In this document: positions 13,138-37,528 of the stretch, in pieces | Numbering within the stretch: the stretch's first letter is position 1 | Layout: every line of letters begins with the position of its first letter | IMG/VR virus record: IMGVR_UViG_3300031578_000009 | Location: 31,690-95,689 of that record | Source: a virus | Direction: 5' to 3' (one strand) | DNA length: 64,000 nucleotides | Program-made: the position numbers and the translations under genes | The notes under the pieces: model-generated | Told to the model about the DNA's origin: nothing | The model's input: the letters and a program-made list of their open reading frames with translations, nothing else | Database searches by the model: none

Positions 13138-14259
13138 TTAATCAAATTTTAATAGAAAATCTGGATTGATAGCTTTAAATGATGAAATCTTTTTTCCATC
13201 TTCTATACATCTAAAAACTATTCCTTCTCTCGGAATATTTGCTAATGTAGATTTTCCTTTAGTAAGATTAATAATTTTATCAACAGTATCTCCAAGATAT
13301 TCTAATCTATCCATGCCTAAAAATGGAACAATATTTAAATTATATTTTTTACAAAACATATTCATTTCATGATAATCATAATGATATCCCTTTTCATGAT
13401 CTATAATATTAAATACCCACATAGTAGGTTCTGTAACACCATATTTATTTCCTTGAACTTTAGTATCACCTTGTTCTCCTTGAATTGTTAAGGTAGGATT
13501 TTCTTTAAGTATTTGTTCTAAATTGTATTTCTTGGCAATTTTCCAATACAGAGAATTTTTATCATTTGTAGTTAAATTTCTACTACATACAACAAATTGA
13601 TATTTCTTAAATGGTAATTTACTTAGTATTCCATTAAATCTTGGAACCATTTTACCTGTCCATGTACCTGATTGATAGTCTATTTTTTCAGTTATATAGA
13701 ATATTTTATCTTTATATTGTTTTAATACTTGTGGAATATTTTGTATTCTTTCTTCATCTGTTTTAGAAACCCAATAAGGAAATCCAGATTTACCTTTCTT
13801 GCTTAAAAACAATCTTCTAAAGAGACTATATCTCAATAAGAATTTCTTTAACTTGGACTTCTCTAACTTAATTTTATTTTCTAATTGTTCAATTTCAGTT
13901 CTTTCAGAAGGAGATAGGTATTTAGTTATCCCCATCCACTCAGTTACGTCTTGATGTTCCCCAAATTTACCAGAATCTACTGAAAGGTAAGAGGTAGGTA
14001 GCACAAGACCCATTGAAATTTGCCCACGAAGTTTAATGGTTCTTATTCTAAATTTTCTTTCTCTAAGGAATTCAAATTCAGGTTTTTCTGGCATTACGGA
14101 ATCAACTTCGCAATAAACTACCTTATCTCCAACTTTAAAATTATCTTTTTTAGCAATTACACATTGCCAACCAAGTATTCCACATAATTCAATTTTATCT
14201 GCACCATCAATAGGCTTTATCCACTCTATTTTTTCTATATGAGCAAGTTTCCTGTCCAT
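13138..14259 (-). CDS. RNA ligase, DRB0094/Rnl2-like, with N-terminal OB (tRNA-binding-like) domain
   Basis: N-terminal RKLAHIEKI..PIDGADKIE. Motifs KTDEERIQN, TEKID (motif I), IQGE, REGIV and SFKAIN. Confidence 0.85.
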   Translation of the reverse strand: MDRKLAHIEKIEWIKPIDGADKIELCGILGWQCVIAKKDNFKVGDKVVYCEVDSVMPEKPEFEFLRERKFRIRTIKLRGQISMGLVLPTSYLSVDSGKFGEHQDVTEWMGITKYLSPSERTEIEQLENKIKLEKSKLKKFLLRYSLFRRLFLSKKGKSGFPYWVSKTDEERIQNIPQVLKQYKDKIFYITEKIDYQSGTWTGKMVPRFNGILSKLPFKKYQFVVCSRNLTTNDKNSLYWKIAKKYNLEQILKENPTLTIQGEQGDTKVQGNKYGVTEPTMWVFNIIDHEKGYHYDYHEMNMFCKKYNLNIVPFLGMDRLEYLGDTVDKIINLTKGKSTLANIPREGIVFRCIEDGKKISSFKAINPDFLLKFD

Positions 14260-14973: not shown

Positions 14974-15297
14974 TTATTGTTCTAATTTAAATCTATCATC
15001 TAATTCTGGTCTTGTTTCTAACACAAATGCTGCTACCAACAAATTCCATGCAGCATGATATAAATGATTTATTTTACTTTCATCATCAAAATCAGATAAT
15101 CTTGGATCTTCAAATGCATCCATATGTCTATCATGTGAATCTAAATACTGGGTAATTGGTGCGCCTTTTAAAAAATTGTATGTTGCATATTTACCTTCTC
15201 CATAATGTGCAACTTTAGCAATCCCTCTAAATAAAAATTTAGGAAAATTATGCCATCTCAACTTACCTTCATTAAATCTTTCTGCTAATTCACTCAT
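14974..15297 (-). CDS. dATP/dGTP diphosphohydrolase-like (DUF5664) protein
   Basis: RFNEGKLRW, YGEGKY..NF.KG, D.ESK.NHL.HAAWN pattern. Confidence 0.8.
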   Translation of the reverse strand: MSELAERFNEGKLRWHNFPKFLFRGIAKVAHYGEGKYATYNFLKGAPITQYLDSHDRHMDAFEDPRLSDFDDESKINHLYHAAWNLLVAAFVLETRPELDDRFKLEQ

Positions 15298-15652
15298 AAT
15301 ATTTTAAATCATAATATTTTAAATACTTAACTGGTATATTATTTTCTTCTGCAATCCTTAATTCAGATTGACAACCTTTACTATTTTTAATTAGTTCCAT
15401 GCCACTTTCTCCAATAATTACTACAATAACCTCGTTACATCTTTTAAGTAATTCAGAATCTTGTTTCATCCAAAAATCATGATCTGTTTGTAATCTATCA
15501 TGCATATATTCAGATATTGGATGAGAATGACTTATTGGACTAAATACGATGTTTCCTTTTAACATTAATTCAGAAGCAACTCTATTAGCTATTTTAAATG
15601 AACGTTCTGGATGCCAACTATAAGGAATACATAAGTATATGATTTTACTCAT
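15290..15652 (-). CDS. DUF1937 / nucleoside-deoxyribosyltransferase-like protein
   Basis: IYLCIPYS, VFSPISHSHP, W..QD, SKGCQSE..A pattern. Confidence 0.75.
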   Translation of the reverse strand: MSKIIYLCIPYSWHPERSFKIANRVASELMLKGNIVFSPISHSHPISEYMHDRLQTDHDFWMKQDSELLKRCNEVIVVIIGESGMELIKNSKGCQSELRIAEENNIPVKYLKYYDLKYYE

Positions 15653-17382: not shown

Positions 17383-18020
17383 TATTTATTGTTTTTAAGT
17401 TTCCAATTGTTAAACATGTCAATATAAGATTCCCTAAAAGAATGTTTAGCATCTATTGCAAAATCTATCATTTGCATTTGAGAATACATAGGCTTGTTTA
17501 TTTCAATATATTTTTCAGCAGCTTTTTTAGTTGAGAATTGTACATAACCTAATGGTGGTTTATTTGGATTTCTCCAATCACATTGGTGTGATAGCGCAGT
17601 CCAACCTTTAAGATAAGGCGAATCGCTTTCTACTACATAATAGTAAACATCTCCTTTATAAATACCTACTCCATCTTTAGTTGCAAATAATGGAGTTTTT
17701 GCATGTTTAACATCTTCCATAATATTAATATGTTTAGATTGAGCTATTTGTTCATCGGTATAAGAAGTTAATTCTGAAGGTCTATGCCATCCATCTTCTT
17801 TCTTAGTATAAGTAGTTTTAGTCTGACTATTAAATACTTTAGTTCCAATTGGATATTCAATTATTTCTTCCCAAAATTCTGGATAAAATTCTACTTTTGT
17901 ATGTGGAATTGGCTGATGATATGGATCATCTGGTATATAATCACCATGATTATTTCTATATGTTGCAATTGTTCCAATTTTTGGAGAACCTGGATATTCA
18001 CGTATGAGTTTAAATTTCAT
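17382..18020 (-). CDS. Hypothetical modular phage protein
   Basis: KLIREYPGSP..G, YPEFWEE, PLF.T.DGV.IY.GD and FSTKKAAE segments. Confidence 0.65.
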   Translation of the reverse strand: MKFKLIREYPGSPKIGTIATYRNNHGDYIPDDPYHQPIPHTKVEFYPEFWEEIIEYPIGTKVFNSQTKTTYTKKEDGWHRPSELTSYTDEQIAQSKHINIMEDVKHAKTPLFATKDGVGIYKGDVYYYVVESDSPYLKGWTALSHQCDWRNPNKPPLGYVQFSTKKAAEKYIEINKPMYSQMQMIDFAIDAKHSFRESYIDMFNNWKLKNNK

Positions 18021-18700
18021 TTATTTCTATTTTTAAGTTGCCATTCTTCATTTAATTCATCAACTATCTCAAGTGAATCAATTAATCTATCATATTCTTT
18101 ATCTATATCTACATAAAGTATATTCTTCATATAAGTAACCGAAATACTTTCTTTAGAATAGTCTTTAGTAGGTAATTTGTAGTTTAGTTGAAATAAATAT
18201 ATACTATTAGTGAATACTTGAGATATATGAGTTAAATAAGCGTTTCCAGTAAGATAGATGTAATTATTATTTCCTAATTTTGATAAATGTAATTTGCAAT
18301 AATTGTTGCCTTTTTTAGAAATTCTATACTCTATTCCAGTAATTCTATCCATCACAACAATGTTTTCTGTATTCTCTGTTAATTCTAATAAATCAGTAAC
18401 TTGATGAGTGCAGAATATTTCATTACAAATATCATACTCCCATAATGGATCATATGTAATTGGAATACCAAGTAATTCAGTTTCCTTATTAACCCAATAC
18501 ATTATATCAACATCATATTCATATAAGTCAATAGTTGGATAAGTAACTGCTTTATCCATTCCCATATCAAATAAAGTTAATTGTCCATCATTGTAAGAGT
18601 GCTTTTGACTACTCTTATTTACTGCAATTATCTTATCCAAACTATTGACTAATGATTGTCTTCTTCTAAATATTTCTATTGCCTCTTTTTTGCTATACAT
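18017..18700 (-). CDS. Stand-alone DNA polymerase III alpha (DnaE) C-terminal-like protein with beta-clamp motif and OB fold
   Basis: QLTLF followed by KETELLGIPITYDPL (cf. EKE.LG.Y.S.HPL) and an OB-like segment (ITGIEYRISKKGNNYCKLHL). No PHP or polymerase core. Confidence 0.65.
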   Translation of the reverse strand: MYSKKEAIEIFRRRQSLVNSLDKIIAVNKSSQKHSYNDGQLTLFDMGMDKAVTYPTIDLYEYDVDIMYWVNKETELLGIPITYDPLWEYDICNEIFCTHQVTDLLELTENTENIVVMDRITGIEYRISKKGNNYCKLHLSKLGNNNYIYLTGNAYLTHISQVFTNSIYLFQLNYKLPTKDYSKESISVTYMKNILYVDIDKEYDRLIDSLEIVDELNEEWQLKNRNK

Positions 18701-18924
18701 TATAATTTAGGATGCGGTGTATTTATAATTGAATTTTTATCAACTATTACATTATTTGCTACTGAAGTAGTATCTGCAAATGATGCACATAGTTCTCTCT
18801 GTTCTAAGCATTTTTGTTTAGCATAAAAATAACACACGCTAACTATTTCATCCAATGAATTAAATACATTACCAGATTCATCATGTAATATTCTTTCTCT
18901 TAAATATTTCTCAGTCTCAGTCAT
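18700..18924 (-). CDS. Hypothetical protein
   Basis: ORF in the operon. Confidence 0.6.
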   Translation of the reverse strand: MTETEKYLRERILHDESGNVFNSLDEIVSVCYFYAKQKCLEQRELCASFADTTSVANNVIVDKNSIINTPHPKL

Positions 18925-19414
18925 TATATTTCATGTTTTTTACAAAATTATTAAATAATATCTTATTGTGTATGTCTGGTAAGGATTTTTTTATCTGTTT
19001 TAAAGCATCATCATTTTGAATATCAAAAGATTCATTTTTTATATCAAATTTAATTGCCCTTCTGCATTTTGATAATAGATGTTGATATCTTTTATTGAAT
19101 TTTTTATCTGTATCAATATAATTATTAATTCTCTTAAGACTATTATATACACAAGTTCTCTCCTTATATTCAAAATATTCTGATAATACTGTTGGATTAC
19201 AATTAACTAATTCCATTGATATAGATTGTGCAATTTGTTTAGGAAGCATAATATTTACATCTCTTGTTTTTATAACAAAATCTTTTGGCTTTAAATCATA
19301 ATCTTTACTTACAATATCACTAATAATTCCTAACTTCTTTTTACTTACTACTTTATTATATTTCTTAAATGTCCTTGGTTTATAATTAATATCATCTTTA
19401 TCAATACTGTCCAT
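18917..19414 (-). CDS. DnaA domain IV (C-terminal HTH)-like protein
   Basis: I...VS..Y.L...DF..KTR...I..PKQIA...F..KERT.VY.SLKRI aligns by eye with the DnaA DNA-binding domain. Confidence 0.7.
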   Translation of the reverse strand: MDSIDKDDINYKPRTFKKYNKVVSKKKLGIISDIVSKDYDLKPKDFVIKTRDVNIMLPKQIAQSISMELVNCNPTVLSEYFEYKERTCVYNSLKRINNYIDTDKKFNKRYQHLLSKCRRAIKFDIKNESFDIQNDDALKQIKKSLPDIHNKILFNNFVKNMKYND

Positions 19415-20099: not shown

Positions 20100-20471
20100 C
20101 TAATCATTTTTATGTTTGTTGTACCATTTAATAAATTCAACTACTGCGCTCCAAGTTACTTCTATAAATTTTGTATTTATAAAAACTTCATTTTCAAATT
20201 GTCCAGAAGCATCTTTCCATTTATAATATTCATTACTTTGATATATTTTATTAATACAAGGTATTAACCAATCCCAAGATGAATGATATTTTAGTTCACT
20301 GAATTTCCAACAACTTCCATCATGGGGATTTTCTGGATAATCTTCTTCTTGAAAATTAATTTCTTCTTCAGATATATACCCTCGAATCCAAGGAGAACAT
20401 TTTTCCTTAGATTGTCCCCCCATAAATTCAGCAATTAGCTTATTTCCTTCTAATATTTCTTCTTGTGTCAT
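20100..20471 (-). CDS. Hypothetical phage protein
   Basis: NKLIAEFMG, YHSSWDWL.P and VVEFIKWYN motifs. Confidence 0.65.
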   Translation of the reverse strand: MTQEEILEGNKLIAEFMGGQSKEKCSPWIRGYISEEEINFQEEDYPENPHDGSCWKFSELKYHSSWDWLIPCINKIYQSNEYYKWKDASGQFENEVFINTKFIEVTWSAVVEFIKWYNKHKND

Positions 20472-21265
20472 AATATATCTTGTATTAAAATATCATTTTC
20501 ATCAAACTTACTATATAATTCTATTCTATCTGGATAATTCATATTAACATCTAATTCTTTCTCATAATGCTTAATTAATGATTCTTCTCTAATGAGAATC
20601 TTCTTTATTAAACCACCTTCTTGAGAATTATAATGGAATGTAATTATTCTTTCTTTAGCTTGTTTACTAATTAATGAATATTTACCATCTAATAATAATT
20701 TATAATCTTCTATGAAGTTATCTGGAATTATAAATTCATATAGTACATATCTATTATTGATATCTATTGTTCTTACAAAACATTCATGTTTGATTAAATA
20801 TTCCTCTTGAGCTTTAAATCTTGAAGACTTGGAAAATTTCAACAATATAAATATAGAATTTTCTGCTTTATGTTCTATAAAATTACAATCTAAATATCCA
20901 TTCATTAAATATCCAATATTTCCACTATTATATTCAATATAGGAAGCAAGCGTTTTATTTTTGAATATAAGTGGAATTATAAATAGTGAAGTTTTATTAT
21001 AAATAGATTCTAAAACATAAAATGTTTTTAAATCTTTTTTGCTTTCTATTATATGATTAGTTTTATACTGGATATCAAAGTTATTTACAGAACAATTATA
21101 CATATCTCCAAGCTGAAGAATAGAATCATTAAATTCTATTGAACTTATGATTCTATTGTCTTTGTTAATTATATAATTGCTATTTGGAAATGTAATCATC
21201 ATCTCACAAATATTTATTGGAGTAAAACTCACTCCATAGTTCTCTAACGCTTGCTTTTTATCCAT
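20468..21265 (-). CDS. Conserved crAss-like replication-module hypothetical protein
   Basis: 265 aa, GKYS.IS motif, coupled to the exonuclease gene. Confidence 0.55.
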   Translation of the reverse strand: MDKKQALENYGVSFTPINICEMMITFPNSNYIINKDNRIISSIEFNDSILQLGDMYNCSVNNFDIQYKTNHIIESKKDLKTFYVLESIYNKTSLFIIPLIFKNKTLASYIEYNSGNIGYLMNGYLDCNFIEHKAENSIFILLKFSKSSRFKAQEEYLIKHECFVRTIDINNRYVLYEFIIPDNFIEDYKLLLDGKYSLISKQAKERIITFHYNSQEGGLIKKILIREESLIKHYEKELDVNMNYPDRIELYSKFDENDILIQDIL

Positions 21266-22158
21266 TAAAAGTCTATTTTTATTTCTTCATTCAGTTTTTG
21301 TATTTCTGTTATTATTGGAAATTCTGGTAATCGGCCAATTTCTCGCATGAAATCATCATTGCAATCTAATAAATGTAAAAGTCGATAATTCTTTTGAAAT
21401 TCATAAACTCCTTTTGATCTACCAAGTCCATCAATTGTTTTCTTTTGTCCACTTGGTGTTTCATAGTACATTCCCCATATATATCCATGTAGTATTTCAT
21501 GTGAATCTAATTTATTATTGAATATTCCACAATTCTCAGGGAATGGAGTTATAACATTATCTCCAGCATCTCCAGATATTAATTGAAAACTTTGCCATTT
21601 TAAAGAATCTTCTATTGAAGTTTCAATCCACCAACCTTTAATTACATCTTCCTCTTGAATCTGATACATTACATCTTCTTTAACTAATGCTTTAATATCA
21701 TCTTTTAGCTTATAGGTATAATTAAAATTTTTGCCTGGAATACTTTGTAATAAATCTTTATCTGGAGAAACTAATATTTTATCAAAATATGTTATATCAT
21801 CATCTAAGATATTTTCTTTCAAATCATTATTTATCCAATATGCTATCAAATCATCGGATTCCATTAAATCCATCCATTGAGCATTCCAATTCTCTATTAA
21901 ATAAGATTTAAGTGTTTTAATCCATTTTAATTGAGTTGGATACTTACTTCGATTTGACTTATATAATGGATCAATGTTGTGACGAAAATATTTATCTTTA
22001 CTAATAAAAAATACATAATGAGTTGCTTCTGTTTTAATAAAAATATTCTGGATTTTTTCATCCAGAATATTTATACTTTCCTCTAATGTATTTTTACTAC
22101 TATGATAAACTAGTCCATCTGCATCAACTAATACTAACTTCTTCTGTTGGTCTTGCAT
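21265..22158 (-). CDS. 5'-3' exonuclease (FEN/PIN fold)
   Basis: VDAD, YK.NR, ESDD, DKDLLQ and GD.GDN motifs. Confidence 0.85.
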   Translation of the reverse strand: MQDQQKKLVLVDADGLVYHSSKNTLEESINILDEKIQNIFIKTEATHYVFFISKDKYFRHNIDPLYKSNRSKYPTQLKWIKTLKSYLIENWNAQWMDLMESDDLIAYWINNDLKENILDDDITYFDKILVSPDKDLLQSIPGKNFNYTYKLKDDIKALVKEDVMYQIQEEDVIKGWWIETSIEDSLKWQSFQLISGDAGDNVITPFPENCGIFNNKLDSHEILHGYIWGMYYETPSGQKKTIDGLGRSKGVYEFQKNYRLLHLLDCNDDFMREIGRLPEFPIITEIQKLNEEIKIDF

Positions 22159-22639
22159 ATTCTATAAATTCTTTACTAAGATTTAATTGTTTTTCTTTGT
22201 CATAATCTTCCATAGTAGACTTTAATAAATCAACTCCAAATATATCATTAAGATTTCTCATATTAATAACCTGCTTTCTACTGCTCCATCCAAATTTGTT
22301 AATTGCAGTAATGATTCTTCTATAATCACCACTAGATAAGTTTGATTTATCAATTAAAGCCATTGGAAGTTCTAGATTATTTCTATTATAACAAACAATT
22401 AGTCCCATTGCATCAAGGCTATTACGTATGATCCCATTACCAACATAATACTCTGCTGTTGAATTGTTTGTAATAAGGCTTCCATCTACAGATAATATTT
22501 CTTCAAAGTTGAATTTATCTTTTAAATCATGAACATATCTACGTTTAGTATTAGAATTAATCTGAAAATATTTTCTGGTTTTAAATCCCCTTTGATTAAA
22601 ACAATATGGAATATATTCTTTTGTCTTTTGTATAATCAT
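22124..22639 (-). CDS. Hypothetical protein downstream of E1
   Basis: ORF overlapping both neighbours. Confidence 0.6.
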   Translation of the reverse strand: MIIQKTKEYIPYCFNQRGFKTRKYFQINSNTKRRYVHDLKDKFNFEEILSVDGSLITNNSTAEYYVGNGIIRNSLDAMGLIVCYNRNNLELPMALIDKSNLSSGDYRRIITAINKFGWSSRKQVINMRNLNDIFGVDLLKSTMEDYDKEKQLNLSKEFIEYARPTEEVSIS

Positions 22640-23295
22640 AATACTTCAATTAAAAATGGTTCTCCAAATTCGCTTATTTTAAATGGAAGATTACATATTT
22701 CTTCATTTGCATATTTATTAATTAAATAATTAACCAATACATGAGTAATTCTAGCTCCTATTAGCATTCCAAAATAAGCAGTTTGTTTAAATGTACATGG
22801 TCCATCATCTACTTCTGAATCATCAAATAATGTAGCCTCATATTGTTCTTCCCTACCTTTAGTAACTACATATACTTCATATAGGTTCGCTCTTAATCTC
22901 CCGTCAATCAGCAATTCTCTATTATCCTGTTTACTCCATTTTTCAAATACTTGTTTTCTGGTAGCCATATTATCCAATCCAGTAATCATAATTGGAAAAT
23001 ACTCATTATTATATTTTGAATTGAATTGCCTTATTGAACAATTAGATTGTTCTTGACAATTTTGTAAAATAGAACTAACTTTATATTTACCAATTTGATT
23101 TTTTTTGAAATTTTGAGTTCCAATATTTATAGCTTCAACTTTATCTGGATCATATATCCAATAAGTTGCTGGAACTGTTTTGGTTAATGCAAATAATGCA
23201 TTTGATCCAATTCCACCAGTTCCAACTAATATTATATGCTCATTTGAACTTTTTTCATACCAAGGAGCATCTTTAAATCTATCATTGTATTCCAT
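22636..23295 (-). CDS. ThiF/E1-like adenylyltransferase
   Basis: VGTGGIGS, D.D.VE..N...Q, G.YK, DN..TR and DGR motifs. Candidate catalytic Cys in GPCTFKQT. Confidence 0.85.
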   Translation of the reverse strand: MEYNDRFKDAPWYEKSSNEHIILVGTGGIGSNALFALTKTVPATYWIYDPDKVEAINIGTQNFKKNQIGKYKVSSILQNCQEQSNCSIRQFNSKYNNEYFPIMITGLDNMATRKQVFEKWSKQDNRELLIDGRLRANLYEVYVVTKGREEQYEATLFDDSEVDDGPCTFKQTAYFGMLIGARITHVLVNYLINKYANEEICNLPFKISEFGEPFLIEVL

Positions 23296-24358
23296 AAAGT
23301 AAATTATTAATAGTTATATCAAATATTGGATTAGTTTCAAATTTATCTCTTAAATCTTCCATTTTAGAACATGCTTCAAGGCAATTTTTACGTAAATTAG
23401 AATCTGATCCAAATTCAAAATCATGAATAATTTCTAAATTAGTTTCCATAGCAACTTCGTATTCATCATAAGCAATTTCTTCATCTTTTGATAATTCATT
23501 ATTAATTTTCTCCATTGCATCTCCAATACTTGAATAATATTTACCAGAATTTAATGAAATTAACTTTTTAAGAAAATTATCAACAGTTCCTGTTTTCTTA
23601 TAAGTCTTTGTTAATGTTTGTAAATCACTATTCCCACCTTGATTTAGCCATCCTGCATTATAATCATCATTCCAATCTTCTTTGAAATTATATTGTTTTT
23701 GCCAAGATTGCTGACCAAATGTTTGTACTGGTTTAATTGCTGTTTTTTCTTTTTTAAGTTCATCAATTCTTTTATTCAACCAATTAATACTATTGAATTT
23801 TGTAGGCATATCAATATCTAAATCTCCAATAAGAATAATATCTTCTTCTGTAGATGATTTAATATTAATTAATTTACCATCCGTACCTTTAATGGATGAA
23901 TTATACAATACTTTAGTTTTAGATGGAAATGCAACTTTACATTTATATTTTCTATCAAAACTAACAATCAATGATAAATAATAATTAAAGTTTGTAGCAT
24001 TTGATAATAATTCATCAGAATCGGTGTTACTAAAAAACGCTTGCATATTATGATGCGTATGCACCATACCACTATTACTATTAATTAAATTTTCATTAAT
24101 ATCATAAGCATCCATTACTTTACCAGAATATTCGAATTCAGTATATGTATGACTACCAATATTCATTGGAAATATAAAATCAACTGTAAATTCCAAATCT
24201 TTCATTTGAAACAAGTTACCTTTTGTTAATTTGTAAAATAATATTCCAGACCATTCTGTACTACCAATAGCAGAATGAAGATTATCTATTACATTAATAA
24301 TTTCTTCATCTAATACTATTTTACCTATTGTTCCTAATTCTTGAGTTTTTTTATCCAC
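23282..24358 (-). CDS. JAB/MPN+ metallo-isopeptidase
   Basis: EWSG plus HTHHNMQAFFSNTD (HxH-x7-S-x2-D). Confidence 0.8.
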   Translation of the reverse strand: MDKKTQELGTIGKIVLDEEIINVIDNLHSAIGSTEWSGILFYKLTKGNLFQMKDLEFTVDFIFPMNIGSHTYTEFEYSGKVMDAYDINENLINSNSGMVHTHHNMQAFFSNTDSDELLSNATNFNYYLSLIVSFDRKYKCKVAFPSKTKVLYNSSIKGTDGKLINIKSSTEEDIILIGDLDIDMPTKFNSINWLNKRIDELKKEKTAIKPVQTFGQQSWQKQYNFKEDWNDDYNAGWLNQGGNSDLQTLTKTYKKTGTVDNFLKKLISLNSGKYYSSIGDAMEKINNELSKDEEIAYDEYEVAMETNLEIIHDFEFGSDSNLRKNCLEACSKMEDLRDKFETNPIFDITINNLLYGIQ

Positions 24359-25562
24359 GTTGTTTTAGTTTTTTATTAATTATATATTGTGAAAATTCTT
24401 CTTCTATCTTACTAATAACTTCATTTAATATATCAACATGTATTGATTTTTCTAAATTATTTTCTAAATCATCATCTGGAATTACTATGTTTTTGATATT
24501 TTCTTCCTTAAACATTACTTCAGAACCTGTATCATTATATCTTTTATAAAAATAATTCTGTTCAAAATTTTCAGTTACTGAAATTCCATTCCTATAAGAA
24601 TATAAATAATGTTCAGGAACAATCTCATTTAAAACTTTACGAATATGATCTTTAGAATCATCTGATAATTTAATATCATAATAATCAATATCATTTATAT
24701 TATAAATAAAACTAAAATCATTGATATGCGATAACAATAATAAATAAACTGTATTTGCATCATAAAAATATTCAATGTCTGCTTCTTTAAATCTATTTTC
24801 ATCACATAGTACATTATCAATCTTTCTATATGGAACTCCCTCAATACTTTCCCAAGAAATATATTCTTTTAATAAGTAATAGAATGGAACAATATTTAAA
24901 AAACAATGTTTTGTTGAATTTCTAGTTCTATCAAATACATTTTTTATTTGAGTATCTCCCATACATAAATCATTATCATATGTTCCAATGTGTGAGTGAG
25001 ATAGATGTGAAAATATATAACTATTTCTTAATTCTCTTTCCGACACTGTAGTTCTTGCAAACTGTAAATAATGTAATCTTTTATTACTAAATGTTAATTT
25101 CATATATAAATCTTTCATCTCAAGAGATTGTTCAAATGAATTTGAAATTATTACAGAAGGAATCCATATAATTATACTATATCTATAACCATCTTTGTAG
25201 CTATTATCATTTTGTAAATCTACATATTCTTCACCAAATACTTCTATTGCTTTATTCAAATAAAATGTTCTAAGTTTTTCATCAGACATTTTGTCTACAG
25301 AATCTATGATATTATTTAATTTTATATCATGAACTTCTTTTTTAGTTAATGGTTTAACTTGACTACTTAAATCTTTAATTGAAAATGCAATAGGTGACAC
25401 TTTATTATTTACATCCGAATAATACATTTTATTTGCTACTCTTCCTTCTTTCTTGAAAATATATTGTTTGTTATACATTACATATTTACTTTGATAAACA
25501 TTATTTGGTAATTTATCTAATTCTTTATCAGAAAGTCTTAATATTTCTTCTGGAAGTACCAT
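24351..25562 (-). CDS. Putative prokaryotic E2-like conjugating enzyme
   Basis: YIFSHL...LCMG (His...Cys-x-Gly) and WES.EG.PY, located between the Ubl and JAB genes. Confidence 0.5.
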   Translation of the reverse strand: MVLPEEILRLSDKELDKLPNNVYQSKYVMYNKQYIFKKEGRVANKMYYSDVNNKVSPIAFSIKDLSSQVKPLTKKEVHDIKLNNIIDSVDKMSDEKLRTFYLNKAIEVFGEEYVDLQNDNSYKDGYRYSIIIWIPSVIISNSFEQSLEMKDLYMKLTFSNKRLHYLQFARTTVSERELRNSYIFSHLSHSHIGTYDNDLCMGDTQIKNVFDRTRNSTKHCFLNIVPFYYLLKEYISWESIEGVPYRKIDNVLCDENRFKEADIEYFYDANTVYLLLLSHINDFSFIYNINDIDYYDIKLSDDSKDHIRKVLNEIVPEHYLYSYRNGISVTENFEQNYFYKRYNDTGSEVMFKEENIKNIVIPDDDLENNLEKSIHVDILNEVISKIEEEFSQYIINKKLKQRG

Positions 25563-25577
25563 ACATTAATATTTTTT

Positions 25578-25600
25578 AAAAGAGGGGATTTCTCCCCTCT
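25578..25600 (-). terminator. Stem-loop/terminator between the Ubl and E2 genes
   Basis: agagggga-gaaa-tcccctct followed by ttt on the - strand. Confidence 0.6.
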
Positions 25601-25606
25601 ATTTGG

Positions 25607-26143
25607 TTAAAACAAATTTAATAATTGTTGTGCTTCAAAATCTATGTCGTCTTCAGTCGTTTCATCCAATAATTTTACTTTATTAGTGGCTTTTGGTTCA
25701 GTTTCATTACTCATAACCTTTAAAATATAAGTTCCTGGATATAAATGAATTTCATCTACTTCTTCTGCTTGATTATTGTTTTTTTCAATCGTATCAAGAA
25801 ATTCATTCAGTTCTTGAGTAGTTTTATGAGTATAATTAAATGGAACATCACCACCATTATCTTTATATTCTTTAACTGCATCTCTTGCTTCCCAATAACC
25901 TAATGCTCCTGCTTTTGATTTAGTTGGCATTACAAACATTACTGAATCAATTTCTGGTAATACTGCTTGGTCTACTTCAAATGAAGCTTTAGAAGCTCTG
26001 TCAATTAGCTTTGATGAACTCCAATCAATACCTAATTCAGTAATTTCTTCTTTTAACTCACCTAATGTACGAGCTGATGTTTCTACTTTCACTAACTCAG
26101 TTTGAGTTAATAACTTTAATTTAATTGTTCTTTTTGTTGTCAT
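25607..26143 (-). CDS. Putative ubiquitin-like (beta-grasp) precursor with C-terminal extension
   Basis: ~78-aa N-terminal domain (ARTLGELK, LP, VMFVMP) ending in KSKAG, followed by a ~100-aa extension. Confidence 0.55.
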   Translation of the reverse strand: MTTKRTIKLKLLTQTELVKVETSARTLGELKEEITELGIDWSSSKLIDRASKASFEVDQAVLPEIDSVMFVMPTKSKAGALGYWEARDAVKEYKDNGGDVPFNYTHKTTQELNEFLDTIEKNNNQAEEVDEIHLYPGTYILKVMSNETEPKATNKVKLLDETTEDDIDFEAQQLLNLF

Positions 26144-27162
26144 AATTTGATTTTTAAATCTGTTAACTGATTTTGTAAATAAAAATTAAACTCACGTCCA
26201 CCATCTTTATACCACATGTCTGTGGGGTCTTTTGGTGCACGTAATGGATTATGTATGTATGGTATTTGATAAATTTGAGAAAACTTCTTTGCATATTTTA
26301 TTCCAGCTTCATCATTATCAAAATAAATTACAAGATTTGGATATCTTTTTTTAAGTTTATAGAATACTTTGTCTGGTATCCAAGATCCTTCATTATTTGG
26401 AGCTATTGCTATTGGTTTATTATATATTCTCCAAAATGGCCCTGTATCTTTAAAACTACTTGTTATAAAGCATATATCTCCACTTTTTGGCAATAAATCC
26501 CATCCCTGTACGATTGTATTATCAACATTTGACAACCACTTTCTATAAGATGGTTTTTGTGGAAAATACAACTTCCTTCTGAATATTCCATTATGCCAAT
26601 AATAATCCATACTATATGAATAATCATCACATACATATAATTTTTCATATATATTCTTTTTTTCAGAAGTTAATCTGAAATAAGAAATTGGATTTATATT
26701 AGCTTTAATAAGCATATTTTCAGCCCATGACTGACTACCCCACCATTCTAAATCATGCTGAAGAAGTTCTCTCTTTTTAATTGTTAATATTGTTTTGTAA
26801 TCCTCATATTCAACTGTATGAATTTGTTGTTCTGAATACTTAGTATAATTATTACTTCCTGAACCTCTTAAATACAGATTAAAATCAATATTTATTTTTT
26901 CTAATACTTCTTTAAAAGTTAATCCATATTTTCTACTAACAAATTGGAAACAATTTAAAGCCCCATCTTCACCAAAGTCTTTATATAAATAAGTGCCATT
27001 AAAATATGAGATAACAGCACTTGGATTTGGATCATTTCTAAATTCAGCTTTAAAATGTTTTCCTATCTTTTGAAAATACTTTGAATATTTCTTATATATA
27101 TCTAATGGACTAACTCTTTCAAGAATATTTTCTATTGTTAATAGTCCATTTGTTTTAAACAT
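26140..27162 (-). CDS. dnaG: DNA primase (TOPRIM)
   Basis: FR.DPNPS, KDFG, ITSSFKD, FDNDEAG and KDPTD motifs. Confidence 0.85.
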   Translation of the reverse strand: MFKTNGLLTIENILERVSPLDIYKKYSKYFQKIGKHFKAEFRNDPNPSAVISYFNGTYLYKDFGEDGALNCFQFVSRKYGLTFKEVLEKINIDFNLYLRGSGSNNYTKYSEQQIHTVEYEDYKTILTIKKRELLQHDLEWWGSQSWAENMLIKANINPISYFRLTSEKKNIYEKLYVCDDYSYSMDYYWHNGIFRRKLYFPQKPSYRKWLSNVDNTIVQGWDLLPKSGDICFITSSFKDTGPFWRIYNKPIAIAPNNEGSWIPDKVFYKLKKRYPNLVIYFDNDEAGIKYAKKFSQIYQIPYIHNPLRAPKDPTDMWYKDGGREFNFYLQNQLTDLKIKL

Positions 27163-27557: not shown

Positions 27558-28193
27558 TTAAAATGGAAGATCGTCCTTAATAGATTGAGTATCAGTTGAT
27601 TGTTGGGGATCTTCATCCATCTTAACTAATGCTTTATAAAAATACTTATTAGTTTTATCAGGCCATGTATTATCCTTCTGTCTTGCTTGTAATTCTGCTT
27701 CTGTTGCTGCTACATAACCATATCTGGGTAAATTAATCAACATTTTAACTTTAGGACTTCCATCCTTATCCTTACCCATATATTCTACTGCTCCAATCAA
27801 AAACCAAGTATATTTGTTATTAAATACTCTTTTTACTTGATTAAGAAAATCTTCAATACTATCTGCTTTAATAGCATCTACTTGCTCTTTTACACCCATT
27901 GCTGTAGCAATAGTTGCAATAATATCTATAAAATCATTTGTAGCTTTATCATCTTGCTTACCTGTAATATAGATACCTAAATCTACTCTTCCAATTTGCC
28001 CCACTGCTCCTTCAAACCCTTCAAAATCTCCACCTAATGGTTTAGTTTCAAGATTGGCTTGCACTTTAAACTTTTCTCCGTTATTTGATTGTGTTATTTC
28101 AAATCCTGTAACCTTTAACTCATTAGGGCCAATGTTAATGAATTGTGGAGTTTTAAACCCTGAATCTACTTTTGCTTCTTTTGTACTAAACAT
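27558..28193 (-). CDS. Single-stranded DNA-binding protein
   Basis: Acidic C-terminal tail DDLPF and replication context. Confidence 0.65.
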   Translation of the reverse strand: MFSTKEAKVDSGFKTPQFINIGPNELKVTGFEITQSNNGEKFKVQANLETKPLGGDFEGFEGAVGQIGRVDLGIYITGKQDDKATNDFIDIIATIATAMGVKEQVDAIKADSIEDFLNQVKRVFNNKYTWFLIGAVEYMGKDKDGSPKVKMLINLPRYGYVAATEAELQARQKDNTWPDKTNKYFYKALVKMDEDPQQSTDTQSIKDDLPF

Positions 28194-29744: not shown

Positions 29745-31051
29745 TTTATATGACGGAGCGTAAAACCAACTCATTACGAAGTGTGGGTTGGATGTAAGCG
29801 ACTCCTTTACACTCACATTTTGACATTTTGTTTGTTTTGTATAAATTGGCATAATTTTTGTAATATATAAACTATGTTTAAATCGTTCAAATACAGAATT
29901 TACCCAACCGAGCCACAAAAAGAGCTTATTGCCAAACATATTGGTAGTAGTCGTTTTGTGTTTAATCTTGCGTTGGAAACTAAAAACGCTGCATATATTG
30001 GTAACAAACATAACTACAGCCCTTTCGATTTAATTAAACAATTACCAGAACTTAAAAAAGAATGTCCTTGGCTAAAAGAAGTAAACTCACAAAGCTTACA
30101 ACAATCTATACAAAATATGGATATTGCTTTTAAGAAATTCTTTAAAGGAGCTGGTTTTCCAAAATTTAAGTCTAAAAGAGATAGACAATCTTTTTCAATA
30201 CCACAAAATGTAATAGTTGAAAATAATCTTTTGATAATACCAAAGTTTAAAGAGGGTATTAAAATATTTTTACATAAACCTACACAAGGTATTGTAAAAA
30301 GTGGAACTATCAGTGTAACACCTACAGGTAAATACTTCGTGTCAATACTTTGTGATACTAAAGAAGATATGCCAATTAAGGTTTCTATTAATGAAAACAC
30401 CACAATAGGTATTGACCTTGGAATAAAAGACTTTGCCATTACCTCAGATGGAGAGGTATTTGATAATCCTAAATTTCTTCGTAAAGCACAAAGTAAATTA
30501 AAATATGTACAACGTAAATACTCAAAACACAAAGGCAAGCGAACTAAAAAGAAACTTGCCAAATTACATGAAGATGTAGTAAACAAACGCAAAGATTTTT
30601 TACACAAAGTTTCAACTAAATTAATTCGTGAGAACCAAACGATAGCCCTTGAAACTTTAGCGGTTAAAAATATGGTTAAAAACCACAATTTAGCACAAGC
30701 AATTAATGATGTAAGTTGGTCAACTTTTGTTTCTATGTTGGAATATAAAGCTGGTTGGTATGGTAAAAATATCCTACGAATAGGACAATTTGCACCATCT
30801 TCAAAAACTTGTTCAAACTGTGGGGCTATCAACAATGAACTACAACTAAAAGACCGTGAATGGACTTGTGGCAGTTGTTCTACTGTTTTAGACCGAGATG
30901 TTAATGCTGCTTGTAACATAAAATCATTTGCTTTAAAAAATATTTTGTCTGGGGAACACAGACTTAAAAGTCAAGACGAACTGCCTACATTAGTAGGAGT
31001 AATGACTCTTGAAGCCAAACCCATCGCCTTTGGCGTGGGTGGGTAGTTCAC
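29745..31051 (+). mobile_element. IS200/IS605-family (IS1341-type, TnpB-only) element
   Basis: Left-end hairpin ccaactca...gtgggttgg (~29766-29791). Right-end hairpin acccatcgcc-ttt-ggcgtgggt ending GTAGTTCAC (31051). Inserted against the operon direction. Left boundary is approximate: TTTAT at 29734 or 29745. Confidence 0.8.
29874..31046 (+). CDS. tnpB: RNA-guided endonuclease TnpB
   Basis: KYRIYPT, RFVFN, RuvC D (GIDLG), E (ALETL), D (DRDVNAA) and Zn ribbon CSNC/CGSC, all intact. Confidence 0.95.
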   Translation: MFKSFKYRIYPTEPQKELIAKHIGSSRFVFNLALETKNAAYIGNKHNYSPFDLIKQLPELKKECPWLKEVNSQSLQQSIQNMDIAFKKFFKGAGFPKFKSKRDRQSFSIPQNVIVENNLLIIPKFKEGIKIFLHKPTQGIVKSGTISVTPTGKYFVSILCDTKEDMPIKVSINENTTIGIDLGIKDFAITSDGEVFDNPKFLRKAQSKLKYVQRKYSKHKGKRTKKKLAKLHEDVVNKRKDFLHKVSTKLIRENQTIALETLAVKNMVKNHNLAQAINDVSWSTFVSMLEYKAGWYGKNILRIGQFAPSSKTCSNCGAINNELQLKDREWTCGSCSTVLDRDVNAACNIKSFALKNILSGEHRLKSQDELPTLVGVMTLEAKPIAFGVGG

Positions 31052-31135
31052 TCTTCTATTATTAAATTAAAATTATATATACTTTCTTCTATTAATTTGA
31101 ACTGTTGTTCAACCCATAAGTCATAATCATCCCAA

Positions 31136-31477
31136 TCATTTGTCATATGCTTCTAAATATTCGTTAAAATGTTTTTTACAAAACCAAACTTTTTCTCCAT
31201 ATAATTCTCCACTATATTTAACTTTATTTCTACATGGTGAAAAATAGCATCTATGTTCTGGAACATTTAATCCTAATATTTTTGAATTATTATCAAATTT
31301 ATCTAATAATTCATCTTTTATATTTAAGATAGTAGCCCATTCTTCTGTTTCAAATTCTGTTAATGCATCAAAATTAATTGGTTTTTGTATTCCAGAAAGA
31401 ATATATTTAAAATAATTTCTGTTTTGAGCTAATTTTTGCTTATTTGTCATATCCATACTTTTTACGTAAACTTTCAA
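31136..31477 (-). CDS. Hypothetical protein with C-terminal Cys/His cluster
   Basis: CYFSPC...CKKH. Confidence 0.6.
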   Translation of the reverse strand: MKVYVKSMDMTNKQKLAQNRNYFKYILSGIQKPINFDALTEFETEEWATILNIKDELLDKFDNNSKILGLNVPEHRCYFSPCRNKVKYSGELYGEKVWFCKKHFNEYLEAYDK

Positions 31478-31673
31478 ATGCCTGATTTAACAATGCAAAA
31501 TCTTTTTCTTCATAAATAACCCTTAATCCACGTAAACTAATTCCATTAATATTCAAATCTATTATTGAATCTAAATAGTATTGAATAACTGGTAATCTAT
31601 GTTTGGCTAATTCTTCTGGATTATCAAACCAAGTATTATCTTTTAATTTTTTTACAAACTCTTGTCTATTCAT
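31440..31673 (-). CDS. Hypothetical protein
   Basis: ORF in the operon. Confidence 0.55.
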   Translation of the reverse strand: MNRQEFVKKLKDNTWFDNPEELAKHRLPVIQYYLDSIIDLNINGISLRGLRVIYEEKDFALLNQAFESLRKKYGYDK

Positions 31674-31983
31674 GTTTTACATATATATCAGAATCATCCT
31701 CTTTCTTAAATAATTTTACAAATTTATGTACATCTGAAGATCCAACATCTTGCAATTTTTCTGGGAATTCTTTTTTAAATGTATCTACCTATTTATTATG
31801 ACCAATTATTGATAATTCTTTAGTGTCATATAATTCCACTATAATCCAATTCCCATTATTATATTCTTTACTACATATTCCTGTTTCATATGGTTGATCG
31901 GAATCTGTTACTAATGCAGTATCAATTGTTACTCCATTAATTACATCATTTGCAACAACTCTATCTTTATAAGTTCCCATCAT
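31666..31983 (-). pseudogene. Hypothetical gene interrupted by an in-frame TAG at 31789-31791
   Basis: Frame continues 40 codons after the stop (GHNK*VDTFKKEFPEKLQDV...) and ends overlapping the next start codon. Confidence 0.55.
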
Positions 31984-32209: not shown

Positions 32210-32222
32210 AATTAATAACGCC

Positions 32223-33220: not shown

Positions 33221-33224
33221 GCAA

Positions 33225-36454: not shown

Positions 36455-37528
36455 TTAATTAATTTTTGTAAGTTTATTTATTGCTACATAATATTCAGGC
36501 TTCATATCATCAGCTTTAGGTAATTCTTTAATAATTCCAGATTCTCCTAAAAACATTGTACCTAATATTTTATCAGCAGCACCTTCTCTGTTTTTAAGTA
36601 TGCTAATAGCTCTAAATCTATCTCCAATTCCACCATCTCTCTTATTTATAAGATAGCCTCTAAAATTAGCAAGTTCATGTCTTTGTGGACTAAATATTGA
36701 TACTACATAATTAGCAGCATCAGTTGTATCACTTGTTTCTTTAAAATCATCAAGAGTTGGCGTAACTGCATCTAGTTTCATTCTATCTGTTGAACCTATT
36801 CCTCTATTTAATTGTTGAACATTTACAAATGAAACTCCAAACATATCTCTTAAATCAATCTGATAAGACATATATTTATCAATATTCTCTTTCTTAGAAA
36901 AACCTCTTTCTCTTTTGATAATTCCTAAATGGTCTGATGCAACTACTACTAATTGTTTTTTATGTGGTTTATAATAATCAAATACTTCTTTTTCTCCATC
37001 ATGAGCTTGTACTGTTTTAGTATAAGTCGTACCATTATCATTAATATACCTTAATACAGTATTCCTAATTCCAGTAGGATTTTCATTGCTAAATACTTCT
37101 ATATATTCTGACATTTGTTCAAAATATTTAGCTAGAGTTTTAGTTTTTTCATAAATTTCTTTAGAAACTCTATTTTTACCTCTTGATAATATATAATTAG
37201 TATCTGCAATAATACCATAATCTAAATAAAGTTTTCTTGCGATAGCTCTAACTCCAAGAGCAGGTTTACTCATCTCTGCACTATATATAAAGATTTTGAG
37301 ATTCATTGAGTCTTTATAATTCTTTATATAGTCTTCATAAGGAGTATATATGAAATTATTTATAACAAACATTGACTTTCCTGAACCCGTGCTACCACCA
37401 CATAAATAAATATTTCCTGGTTGTAGTCCTGGTATATATTCTTGTAATCTTTCTAGTCCTAAATTTAAGCCATTATTCTCACCCTTAATACCAGATTCTA
37501 TTTCTTGCAATCCTAGGTTAAATATCAT
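36455..37528 (-). CDS. dnaB: DnaB-like replicative helicase
   Basis: GGSTGSGKS, SAEM, DHLG, QQLNR and LKNREG motifs. Confidence 0.88.
   Translation of the reverse strand: MIFNLGLQEIESGIKGENNGLNLGLERLQEYIPGLQPGNIYLCGGSTGSGKSMFVINNFIYTPYEDYIKNYKDSMNLKIFIYSAEMSKPALGVRAIARKLYLDYGIIADTNYILSRGKNRVSKEIYEKTKTLAKYFEQMSEYIEVFSNENPTGIRNTVLRYINDNGTTYTKTVQAHDGEKEVFDYYKPHKKQLVVVASDHLGIIKRERGFSKKENIDKYMSYQIDLRDMFGVSFVNVQQLNRGIGSTDRMKLDAVTPTLDDFKETSDTTDAANYVVSIFSPQRHELANFRGYLINKRDGGIGDRFRAISILKNREGAADKILGTMFLGESGIIKELPKADDMKPEYYVAINKLTKIN

What the first reader, a model, noticed from the sequence alone, without database searches (positions are those of the whole stretch)
18017..18700. Stand-alone DnaE C-terminal mimic with a QLTLF beta-clamp motif in a replication module lacking a polymerase
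Seen: the 227-aa protein starts just before QLTLF, then has the E..LLG..IT.DPL segment and an OB-like region. No PolA, PolB or DnaE catalytic gene is recognisable in 13-52 kb, although primase, DnaB, SSB and exonuclease are present. Established: QL[S/D]LF is the clamp-binding consensus, and crAss-like phages usually encode PolA or PolB in this module. Inference: an adaptor or decoy that redirects or inhibits the host Pol III holoenzyme.
Basis: partly seen in the sequence, partly recalled or inferred. Interest (0 to 1): 0.7.

Follow-up and report, generated by a model that had tools for sequence, protein, structure and literature searches.

The report
Stand-alone DnaE tail in polymerase-less crAss phage
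A complete crAss-like phage genome with no DNA polymerase gene carries a small, conserved gene that copies only the non-catalytic tail of the bacterial replicative polymerase (the part that grips the sliding clamp), most likely so the phage can plug into the host's replication machine, though jamming that machine is not excluded.

Summary
Observation confirmed. The ORF lies on the minus strand (18700 to 18017, 227 aa). It is a true homolog of the last ~200 residues of Pol III alpha (DnaE1). A DnaE profile hits it at E 2e-21 and hits nothing else in six frames of the whole 95.7-kb genome. hhalign puts QLTLF (aa 40-44) on E. coli Q920-ADMF-924. The AF2 model (pLDDT 90) best matches the M. tuberculosis DnaE1 tail (Z 11.3).

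It belongs to a family of about 120 mostly stand-alone metagenomic proteins. In 44 aligned members (19-47% identity to the target) the motif Q[LMF][SDTN][LIM][FY] is present in all. The target's subfamily has also lost the extreme C-terminal domain of DnaE.

The complete genome has no PolA, PolB, DnaE core, clamp or canonical SSB. It does have DnaB, a DnaG-like primase, FEN, Sak4 and an SSB-like protein ending in DDLPF. A syntenic relative without a polymerase keeps the gene. A 99%-complete relative with PolA lacks it.

A complex prediction puts QLTLF in the canonical pocket of a Bacteroidota clamp (score 0.65, best control 0.00; textbook-like pair).

Best reading: a clamp-docking, ssDNA-binding adaptor for using host Pol III. 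The inhibitor reading remains open. I found no publication. This scan has noted the same kind of gene in other crAss-like genomes.

The parts
18017..18700 (-). Gene for the 227-aa stand-alone DnaE-tail protein (P0001); the stop codon is 18017-18019
   Evidence: ORF list. DnaE HMM E 2e-21 over residues 14-214. AF2 pLDDT 90.1. Overlapping start and stop codons with both neighbours.
18584..18700 (-). Residues 1-39: two helices matching the last helices of the DnaE beta-binding domain. R14 is present in 42 of 44 family members (the other two are gapped there).
   Evidence: Residues 19-34 also touch the clamp in the predicted complex.
18569..18583 (-). Clamp-binding motif QLTLF (residues 40-44), in a loop of lower model confidence
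   Evidence: Aligned to gQlsLF of the DnaE HMM and to E. coli Q920-ADMF-924. Q is invariant, and L43 and F44 are in 42 and 43 of 44 members. pLDDT drops to 61-69 over residues 31-50. Docked in the clamp pocket.
18443..18484 (-). Linker ETELLGIPITYDPL (residues 73-86), matching the DnaE 'E.E.LG.y.sgHPL' segment between the clamp motif and the OB fold
   Evidence: E73 and G78 are invariant and Y83 is in 41 of 44 members. Aligned.
18113..18379 (-). OB-fold domain (residues about 108-196) with the conserved loop S128-K129-K130-G131-N132-x-Y134
   Evidence: AF2 strands. VIA-align matches to DnaE1 and OB folds, Z 9-11. The loop aligns to E. coli T1008-K1009-R1010-G1011-N1012. Family conservation.
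18020..18112 (-). Short helical C-terminal end (residues 197-227). The protein stops where the extreme C-terminal domain of DnaE would begin.
   Evidence: The DnaE HMM alignment ends near position 1087 of 1158 for the 227-aa subfamily, while some ~260-aa members reach 1120-1148.
27558..28193 (-). Context: 211-aa SSB-like protein ending in DDLPF, a second possible hook to host replisome proteins
   Evidence: Translation. Atlas look-alikes include DUF669-type phage proteins at 0.95-0.96. No Pfam or PHROG hit.
26140..27162 (-). Context: DnaG-like primase (Toprim)
   Evidence: Pfam Toprim_2; PHROG DNA primase, E 3e-30.
36455..37528 (-). Context: DnaB-like replicative helicase
   Evidence: Pfam DnaB_C, E 1.4e-13; PHROG 19.
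21265..22158 (-). Context: 5'-3' exonuclease (FEN)
   Evidence: Pfam 5_3_exonuc_N, E 7e-11. Syntenic in relative G001.
18917..19414 (-). Context: DnaA domain-IV-like HTH protein, two genes upstream. Its homolog also lies upstream of the tail gene in relative G001.
   Evidence: Pfam Bac_DnaA_C, E 1.1e-7; G001 homolog.

Best explanation
The gene encodes a non-catalytic, stand-alone copy of the tail of bacterial DNA polymerase III alpha (DnaE1 type), derived from a cellular dnaE, possibly of the Bacteroidota that crAss-like phages infect. It keeps the last two helices of the beta-binding domain, the internal clamp-binding motif (QLTLF) on a flexible loop, the linker and the OB fold. It has no PHP, palm, thumb, fingers or helix-hairpin-helix parts, and in this subfamily it also lacks the extreme C-terminal domain.

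Proposed mechanism:
1. QLTLF inserts into the hydrophobic pocket of the host beta sliding clamp.
2. The OB fold, with its conserved basic loop, holds single-stranded template.
3. The phage has its own helicase, primase, SSB-like protein, flap nuclease and recombination proteins, but no polymerase, clamp or clamp loader that I could recognise. It must therefore copy its DNA with the host Pol III holoenzyme.
4. The tail most likely takes one of the two pockets of a loaded host clamp at phage primer-template junctions. That would keep or mark clamps, and through them host Pol III, on phage DNA.

On this reading it is a hijacking adaptor rather than a general replication poison.

Shown: the homology, the domain content, the family-wide motif conservation, and the absence of any recognisable polymerase. 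Predicted in silico: docking on the clamp. Inferred: ssDNA binding, and the adaptor role rather than an inhibitor role.
For: Homology:
- The profile search reaches real DnaE only in the region after HHH_6 and into the OB domain.
- The DnaE HMM hits the ORF at E 2e-21 and nothing else in six frames of the genome.
- hhalign to the E. coli DnaE tail gives probability 93.9, with QLTLF on Q920-ADMF-924 and SKKGN on T1008-K1009-R1010-G1011-N1012.
- The AF2 model has pLDDT 90.1. The top structural match is M. tuberculosis DnaE1 residues 919-1099, Z 11.3 over 154 residues. It is the only match spanning both the helical part and the OB fold.

Selection:
- The family has 120 representatives, 48 of them at E<=1e-10, nearly all 220-290 aa.
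- All 44 aligned members hit the DnaE HMM at positions about 885-1070.
- The motif Q[LMF][SDTN][LIM][FY] is in 44 of 44, and E73 and G78 are invariant, at 19-47% identity to the target.

No polymerase, clamp or canonical SSB in the complete genome. The larger unknown proteins checked do not look like polymerases.

Distribution:
- The syntenic relative G001 has no PolA or PolB in the 70% that is assembled and keeps the gene (QFSLF motif).
- The 99%-complete relative G002 has PolA and no tail gene.
- In 122 cellular genomes sampled, the profile matches lay inside long dnaE frames, apart from three short or weak ones: two in frames that may be cut at contig ends, and one weak partial hit interrupted by stops. 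I saw no intact stand-alone copy.

Docking: complex prediction with a Vicingus (Bacteroidota) DnaN dimer scored 0.65, best control 0.00. That mark was reached by 58 of 80 solved complexes and 2 of 110 mismatched pairs. The runs agree in at least 72% of contacts and partner pLDDT is at least 73. Partner residues 38-55 contact DnaN 172-177, 242-247, 345-347 and 365-370. This resembles solved clamp-peptide complexes, so the pass may come from model memory.

Context: an SSB-like protein with a host-type DDLPF tail. [quoted passage not shown]
Against: - No experiment. Clamp binding and ssDNA binding are predictions only.
- The adaptor-versus-inhibitor choice rests on three genomes, one of them only 70% complete, plus unchecked notes from this scan.
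- This subfamily lacks the extreme C-terminal domain. From memory, that domain binds tau in E. coli. So it cannot mimic the alpha-tau link, and no contact with any phage replisome protein has been shown.
- A protein that fills clamp pockets would also compete with host alpha, on which the phage itself depends.
- The host is not identified. The family profile scores Bacteroidota DnaE only modestly better than Patescibacteria DnaE (top 76.7 versus 63.8 bits).
Confidence: 0.5

Rival explanations
1. Decoy or inhibitor. The tail saturates the protein-binding pockets of the host clamp (and perhaps template ssDNA at host forks). It would displace host Pol III alpha or other clamp clients such as repair polymerases, MutS/MutL or Hda, and so shut down host replication or repair during takeover.
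For: The same motif conservation and predicted pocket docking apply. The protein lacks every catalytic part and the extreme C-terminal domain, so it can occupy a clamp without doing DNA synthesis. From memory, small proteins of Staphylococcus phages Twort and G1 bind the clamp and stop host replication. Phage Mu MuC uses a clamp-binding motif and is toxic when over-expressed (PMC12867686, listed).
Against: The phage has no polymerase of its own, so a general block of clamp-Pol III contact would also stop phage replication. The gene is present in polymerase-less genomes and absent from the PolA-encoding relative, the opposite of what is expected for a host-specific poison. A decoy would need only the peptide, yet the OB fold and its basic loop are conserved across the family.
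Confidence: 0.25
2. Clamp-tethered ssDNA-binding factor for recombination-dependent replication or Okazaki-fragment processing. The tail would bring the phage flap nuclease, ligase-like enzyme, Sak4 annealase or RusA resolvase to clamps left on phage DNA, rather than acting on Pol III itself.
For: The gene sits in one minus-strand block with FEN, a RusA-like resolvase, DUF932 and Sak4. FEN and the 265-aa neighbour are syntenic with it in G001. The domain content is an OB fold plus a clamp motif.
Against: No contact with any of these proteins has been shown. The immediate neighbours (74 aa and 212 aa) are not conserved in G001. The origin from the polymerase tail points to the polymerase's own position on the clamp.
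Confidence: 0.12
3. Third piece of a split or unrecognised phage polymerase. The tail would supply clamp binding and template grip to a catalytic subunit encoded elsewhere that is too diverged to recognise, for example something like the two-gene minimal Pol III alpha of jumbo phages.
For: Several conserved replication-block proteins have no known family: 265 aa at 20468-21265, 672 aa at 40922-42940, and others. Notes from this scan describe split mini-DnaE genes in jumbo phages (lead only).
Against: A DnaE HMM with filters off finds no other piece in six frames. Pfam and PHROGs give no polymerase hit on any ORF tested. The 672-aa protein is a poorly folded chain of small repeats in the Atlas model (pTM 0.23). 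The 265-aa protein's model (pLDDT 69) has no significant PDB match.
Confidence: 0.08
4. Decaying remnant of a captured or once full-length dnaE gene, with no function.
For: It covers only about 200 of about 1160 DnaE positions.
Against: It has an intact frame with coupled start and stop. It belongs to a family of about 120 representatives with the same stand-alone architecture and the same N-terminal boundary. Functional residues are invariant at 19-47% identity to the target. The fold is predicted with confidence.
Confidence: 0.03

Closest known systems
C-terminal region of bacterial DNA polymerase III alpha, DnaE1 type (E. coli alpha about 886-1100; M. tuberculosis DnaE1 919-1099, PDB 7pu7)
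   Same: Homologous in sequence and fold. It has the internal clamp-binding motif at the same position (E. coli 920-924), the same linker, and an OB fold with the same basic loop (E. coli K1009/R1010 region).
   Different: It is a separate 227-aa gene product in a phage. It has no PHP, palm, thumb, fingers or helix-hairpin-helix parts and no extreme C-terminal domain, so it cannot synthesise DNA. From memory of the E. coli work, it also cannot bind tau through that domain.
Phage proteins that act on the host beta clamp (from memory: Staphylococcus phage Twort and G1 clamp-binding growth inhibitors; from the library: phage Mu MuC, PMC12867686)
   Same: A phage-encoded protein that addresses the host sliding clamp through the client-binding pocket or a clamp-binding motif.
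   Different: Those proteins are not, to my knowledge, derived from the polymerase itself and carry no OB fold. The staphylococcal ones come from phages with their own polymerase and act as inhibitors. MuC serves late transcription.
Polymerase-less crAss-like phages (epsilon group and a few environmental genomes; Yutin et al. 2021, PMC7886860)
   Same: A crAss-like genome with DnaB, primase and other replication genes but no PolA or PolB.
   Different: In the passages I read, the paper notes the absence of a polymerase and does not describe a DnaE-tail gene. It contains no mention of the clamp.
Split minimal Pol III alpha of jumbo phages
   Same: A phage gene derived from a fragment of a C-family polymerase.
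   Different: Those fragments are the catalytic core with the aspartates. This one is the non-catalytic tail, and no core halves were found in this genome.

Membership tests
DNA polymerase III alpha subunit (C-family polymerase, DnaE) | PHP domain | tested here: not met
   There is no PHP hit on the protein. The DnaE HMM aligns only positions 887-1086. No other DnaE part is found in six frames of the genome.
DNA polymerase III alpha subunit (C-family polymerase, DnaE) | Pol-beta-like palm with catalytic aspartates, thumb and fingers (PF07733, PF17657) | tested here: not met
   Absent from the protein and from the whole genome.
DNA polymerase III alpha subunit (C-family polymerase, DnaE) | Beta-binding domain with helix-hairpin-helix (PF14579) | tested here: not met
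   Only the last two helices are present. In real DnaE the match starts after HHH_6.
DNA polymerase III alpha subunit (C-family polymerase, DnaE) | Internal clamp-binding motif Qxx[LM]F | tested here: met
   QLTLF aligns to the DnaE consensus gQlsLF and to E. coli 920-924. It is present in 44 of 44 family members.
DNA polymerase III alpha subunit (C-family polymerase, DnaE) | OB-fold domain after the clamp motif | tested here: met
   The AF2 model and VIA-align give Z 11.3 to DnaE1 and Z 9-10 to other OB folds.
DNA polymerase III alpha subunit (C-family polymerase, DnaE) | Extreme C-terminal domain (tau-binding in E. coli) | tested here: not met
   The alignment of the 227-aa subfamily ends near HMM position 1087 of 1158. 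Some ~260-aa members reach 1120-1148.
Beta-clamp client proteins (clamp-binding-motif bearers) | QL[SD]LF-type pentapeptide in an exposed, flexible segment | tested here: met
   Motif. pLDDT dips to 61-69 over residues 31-50, between well-ordered parts.
Beta-clamp client proteins (clamp-binding-motif bearers) | The peptide occupies the hydrophobic pocket between clamp domains II and III | tested here: inconclusive
   Complex prediction scored 0.65 against a best control of 0.00, with contacts to DnaN 172-177, 242-247, 345-347 and 365-370. This is a prediction only, and the pair is like solved complexes, so the pass may come from memory.
Beta-clamp client proteins (clamp-binding-motif bearers) | Physical binding to the host clamp | not testable with these tools
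   This needs a pull-down, ITC or SPR with the host DnaN.
Phage clamp-targeting replication inhibitors | Expression arrests host DNA synthesis | not testable with these tools
   This needs expression in a host. I held no sequences of the known inhibitors, so no homology test was run.
Split minimal Pol III alpha of jumbo phages | Two adjacent small genes carrying the catalytic core | tested here: inconclusive
   There are no DnaE-core hits in six frames and no PHROG hit on the small unknown ORFs. No profile of the mini-DnaE family itself was available.

The most novel reading that the evidence does not exclude
The DnaE tail is the clamp-binding and template-gripping subunit of a phage DNA polymerase of a kind not yet recognised. 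Its catalytic partner would be hidden among the conserved unknown proteins of the replication block. On this reading, 'polymerase-less' crAss-like phages are not polymerase-less.
Probability: 0.07. Interest if true: 0.9.

Novelty: new variant of a known kind. Interest (0 to 1): 0.62.

Why it matters
Some crAss-like phages have no DNA polymerase, and how a roughly 100-kb phage with its own helicase and primase gets the host polymerase onto its forks is not known. A conserved phage gene that copies exactly the clamp-gripping, template-sensing tail of the host polymerase gives a concrete handle on this that can be cloned. It can be tested with purified clamp, ssDNA and Pol III holoenzyme.

If it is an adaptor, it would be a new way of capturing a host replisome. 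If it is an inhibitor, it is a natural, domain-sized blocker of the bacterial clamp, which is a recognised antibiotic target. Either way, it marks a family of about 120 metagenomic protein clusters that currently carry no annotation.

Tried and rejected
- Direct sequence searches with the single protein gave nothing useful: a weak sub-threshold MCM10_OB hit in Pfam, nothing in PHROGs, and only a chance hit in PDB sequences.
- tblastn of the target and two family members against GenBank phages found no match.
- Scans of IMG/VR and JGI metagenomes for relatives found only G001. Three alignments were too diverged for the scanner.
- The word-indexed protein search with the family alignment returned only 3 proteins.
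- Hidden polymerase in the ORF-poor stretch 31047-36102: all three stop codons interrupt every frame, so recoding is not the explanation. There are no Rfam introns and no polymerase hits.
- The larger unknown proteins as polymerase candidates:
  - 672 aa: no family, poorly folded repeats.
  - 265 aa: model pLDDT 69, no significant PDB match.
- Host assignment from the TnpB element was not decisive. Its closest copies are in MAGs labelled Saccharimonadales, Vicingus, Sediminibacterium, Flavobacterium and others.
- A scan for the organism of the closest DnaE (P0092) found nothing.
- The primase-based search for more relatives gave one 9.5-kb contig that ends before the region of interest.
- Literature searches for a described stand-alone DnaE tail in phages found none.
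Full report
**What is there**

The window is bases 31690-95689 of a complete 95,689-bp viral record with a 127-bp direct terminal repeat. The record is 26-29% G+C.

Its layout is crAss-like:
- Portal, major capsid protein, large virion proteins and a 3773-aa giant protein lie on the + strand.
- A replication block lies on the minus strand.
- TerL is at the right end.
- The capsid protein is about 30-33% identical to those of known Crassvirales.

The finding's ORF is on the minus strand, 18700 down to 18017, and encodes 227 aa. Its start overlaps the upstream stop (TAATG). Its stop overlaps the next start (ATGA). It is therefore embedded in the replication operon.

**Is it a DnaE tail?**

Single-sequence searches see nothing, but profile methods are clear.

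- A profile of the target and its closest homolog, run against 1.8 billion representative proteins, found 120 proteins. Most are 220-290 aa and stand alone. It also found long proteins at E about 1e-4.
- Pfam shows that those long proteins are bona fide DnaE (PHP, DNA_pol3_alpha, fingers, HHH_6, OB). The match always falls just after HHH_6 and into the OB domain, for example P0092 residues 948-1105 of 1224.
- In the reverse direction, an HMM of eight DnaE sequences was searched with filters off against every stop-to-stop frame of the whole phage genome. It hits this ORF at E 2e-21 (HMM 887-1086 of 1158, target 14-214). Nothing else scores below E 1.
- hhalign of the 44-member family against E. 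coli DnaE 841-1160 gives probability 93.9 and E 1.6e-7. It places QLTLF on E. coli Q920-ADMF-924, and the loop S128-K129-K130-G131-N132 on T1008-K1009-R1010-G1011-N1012.
- From memory, 920-924 is the internal beta-binding site of alpha, and K1009/R1010 are among the OB-fold residues implicated in ssDNA binding. I did not verify those papers here.

**Structure**

AlphaFold2 with the family alignment gives pLDDT 90.1. The model has two N-terminal helices, then a lower-confidence loop carrying QLTLF. A helical linker, a five-stranded OB barrel and a short helical end follow.

VIA-align ranks M. tuberculosis DnaE1 (7pu7_A, residues 919-1099) first, at Z 11.3 over 154 residues. It is the only match that covers both the helical part and the OB fold. 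All other matches (Z 9-10) cover the OB fold alone.

**Family and selection**

- All 44 aligned stand-alone members are recognised by the DnaE HMM at positions about 885-1070.
- At 19-47% identity to the target, Q40, E73 and G78 are invariant.
- The pentapeptide Q[LMF][SDTN][LIM][FY] is present in 44 of 44 members. The loop SK.GN.Y is also strongly conserved.
- Some ~260-aa members extend to HMM 1120-1148, so they keep the extreme C-terminal domain of DnaE. The target's 227-aa subfamily stops near 1087 and has lost it.
- In 61 Bacteroidota and 61 Patescibacteria genomes, the profile matches lay inside long dnaE frames (about 1070-1630 aa). There are three short or weak exceptions. Two are in frames that may be cut at contig ends (423 and 345 aa). 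One is a weak partial hit interrupted by stops. I saw no intact stand-alone copy.
- The top scores are somewhat higher in Bacteroidota (76.7 bits) than in Patescibacteria (63.8 bits).

This is a stable, selected gene family and not a decaying fragment.

**No polymerase**

- PF07733, PF00476 and PF00136 find nothing in the complete genome.
- DnaE proteins and the DnaE HMM find only the tail.
- The PolA pieces of a related phage find nothing.
- No clamp (PF02768) and no canonical SSB (PF00436) is present.

The replication block does encode:
- a DnaB-like helicase, an SF2 helicase, a DnaG-like primase and a Sak4-like annealase;
- a 5'-3' exonuclease, a RusA-like resolvase and an RNA-ligase-family enzyme;
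- a DnaA domain-IV-like protein;
- a 211-aa protein two genes downstream of Sak4 that ends in DDLPF and resembles DUF669-type phage proteins, so it is a likely SSB with a host-like tail.

The larger unknown proteins do not look like polymerases.

The ORF-poor, slightly G+C-richer stretch at 31047-36102 is interrupted by all three stop codons in every frame and has no Rfam match. I did not test that.

Yutin et al. [quoted passage not shown] This genome fits that minority.

**Relatives**

- G001 (67 kb, 70% complete, capsid 68% identical) is syntenic. It keeps the tail gene (44% identity, motif QFSLF), the DnaA-IV-like gene, the 265-aa gene and FEN. It has no PolA or PolB in what is assembled.
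- G002 (97.6 kb, 99% complete, capsid 51% identical) has a PolA in three pieces next to its helicases and no tail gene.
- The immediate neighbours of the tail gene in this window (74 aa and 212 aa) are not conserved in G001.

This pattern (tail without polymerase, polymerase without tail) is what a host-polymerase-dependent role predicts. It rests on three genomes only.

**Clamp docking**

I took DnaN from a Vicingus (Bacteroidota) MAG, reached through the phage's TnpB element. I folded a DnaN dimer with the tail.

- The score was 0.65 in two runs and 0.60 in the third. The best of three controls was 0.00.
- That mark was reached by 58 of 80 solved complexes and by 2 of 110 mismatched pairs.
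- The runs agree in at least 72% of contacts, and partner pLDDT is at least 73.
- Contacts of tail residues 38-55 centre on DnaN 172-177, 242-247, 345-347 and 365-370, which is the canonical client pocket.
- Clamp-peptide complexes are well represented among solved structures. The pass may therefore reflect memory. It shows likeness, not binding.

**How it most likely works**

The protein keeps exactly the parts of alpha that hold the clamp and face the single-stranded template. It has lost everything that makes DNA and, in this subfamily, the extreme C-terminal domain.

A phage that brings its own helicase, primase and SSB-like protein but no polymerase, clamp or loader must use the host holoenzyme. 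I therefore favour a clamp-docking, ssDNA-binding adaptor. It would occupy one of the two pockets of a loaded host clamp at phage primer-template junctions. That would keep clamps, and through them host Pol III, on phage DNA, possibly in concert with the DDLPF-tailed SSB-like protein.

I give this reading a confidence of 0.5. That the protein is a DnaE-tail homolog with a selected clamp motif is far more secure.

The rivals are:
- a decoy that blocks clamp clients (0.25). It is disfavoured because the phage needs the same clamp-polymerase contact, because of the distribution among relatives, and because the OB fold is retained;
- a clamp-tethered factor for recombination or Okazaki-fragment processing (0.12);
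- a subunit of an unrecognised phage polymerase (0.08);
- a dead remnant (0.03).

**Known or new**

Full-text searches found no description of a stand-alone DnaE tail in phages or in Crassvirales.

Notes of this scan report the same kind of gene in at least three other crAss-like genomes (e1-5964288, e1-6007003, e1-5967216). One follow-up there reached the same reading. These are unchecked AI notes, so I treat them as leads only.

It is not a member of the polymerase family in any functional sense, since five of seven defining features are absent. It is a domain-level offshoot of that family, and a new variant among phage proteins that address the host clamp.

**Limits**

- The host is unidentified.
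- All functional statements are predictions.

Noticed in passing
window 29745-31051 (+): A TnpB-only IS605-type element (OrfB_IS605 plus Cas12f1-like TNB domains, 390 aa) is inserted between the Sak4-like gene and the ORF-poor stretch. It is 93% identical in DNA to a copy on an 81-kb contig of a 'Saccharimonadales' MAG, and 74-83% identical to copies in Vicingus, Sediminibacterium, Chitinophagales and other MAGs. Homology stops 5 bases after the tnpB stop codon.
   Followed up: partly
window 31047-36102: This 5-kb stretch has no ORF over 109 aa, is about 33% G+C against 26% elsewhere, and has all three stop codons in every frame. It has no Rfam match.
   Followed up: partly
window 22636-26143 (-): ThiF (E1-like) and weak JAB hits lie directly downstream of the primase, together with a 403-aa and a 178-aa protein of no family.
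   Followed up: no
window 27558-28193 (-): A 211-aa protein two genes downstream of the Sak4-like gene ends in DDLPF, the kind of acidic tip that bacterial SSB uses to recruit partner proteins. It has no Pfam or PHROG hit, and its Atlas look-alikes are DUF669-type phage proteins.
   Followed up: partly
window 40922-42940 (-): A 672-aa protein of no known family appears to be built of repeated small beta-rich modules, with a Cys-rich C-terminal part. It has a 710-aa counterpart in relative G002, next to that phage's helicases.
   Followed up: partly
L033 (G002:C1) 36337-39241 (-): The PolA of the related 97.6-kb phage is split into at least three separate open frames (Pfam positions 30-160, 162-303, 304-380), with other ORFs between them. 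This suggests introns, inteins or homing-endonuclease insertions.
   Followed up: no
window 14974-15652 (-): Adjacent small genes hit the PHROG families dATP/dGTP pyrophosphohydrolase (MazG-like) and nucleoside 2-deoxyribosyltransferase. This hints at nucleotide pool editing or DNA base modification.
   Followed up: no
window 13138-14259 (-): A 373-aa protein combines a PHA02142 OB-fold domain with an RNA_ligase domain. It is the only ligase-like enzyme I saw in the replication block.
   Followed up: no
window 20468-21265 (-): A 265-aa protein is conserved (42-48% identity) in G001 and four metagenomic proteins. It lies directly after the flap nuclease, has no family, and its AF2 model (pLDDT 69) has no significant PDB match.
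   Followed up: partly
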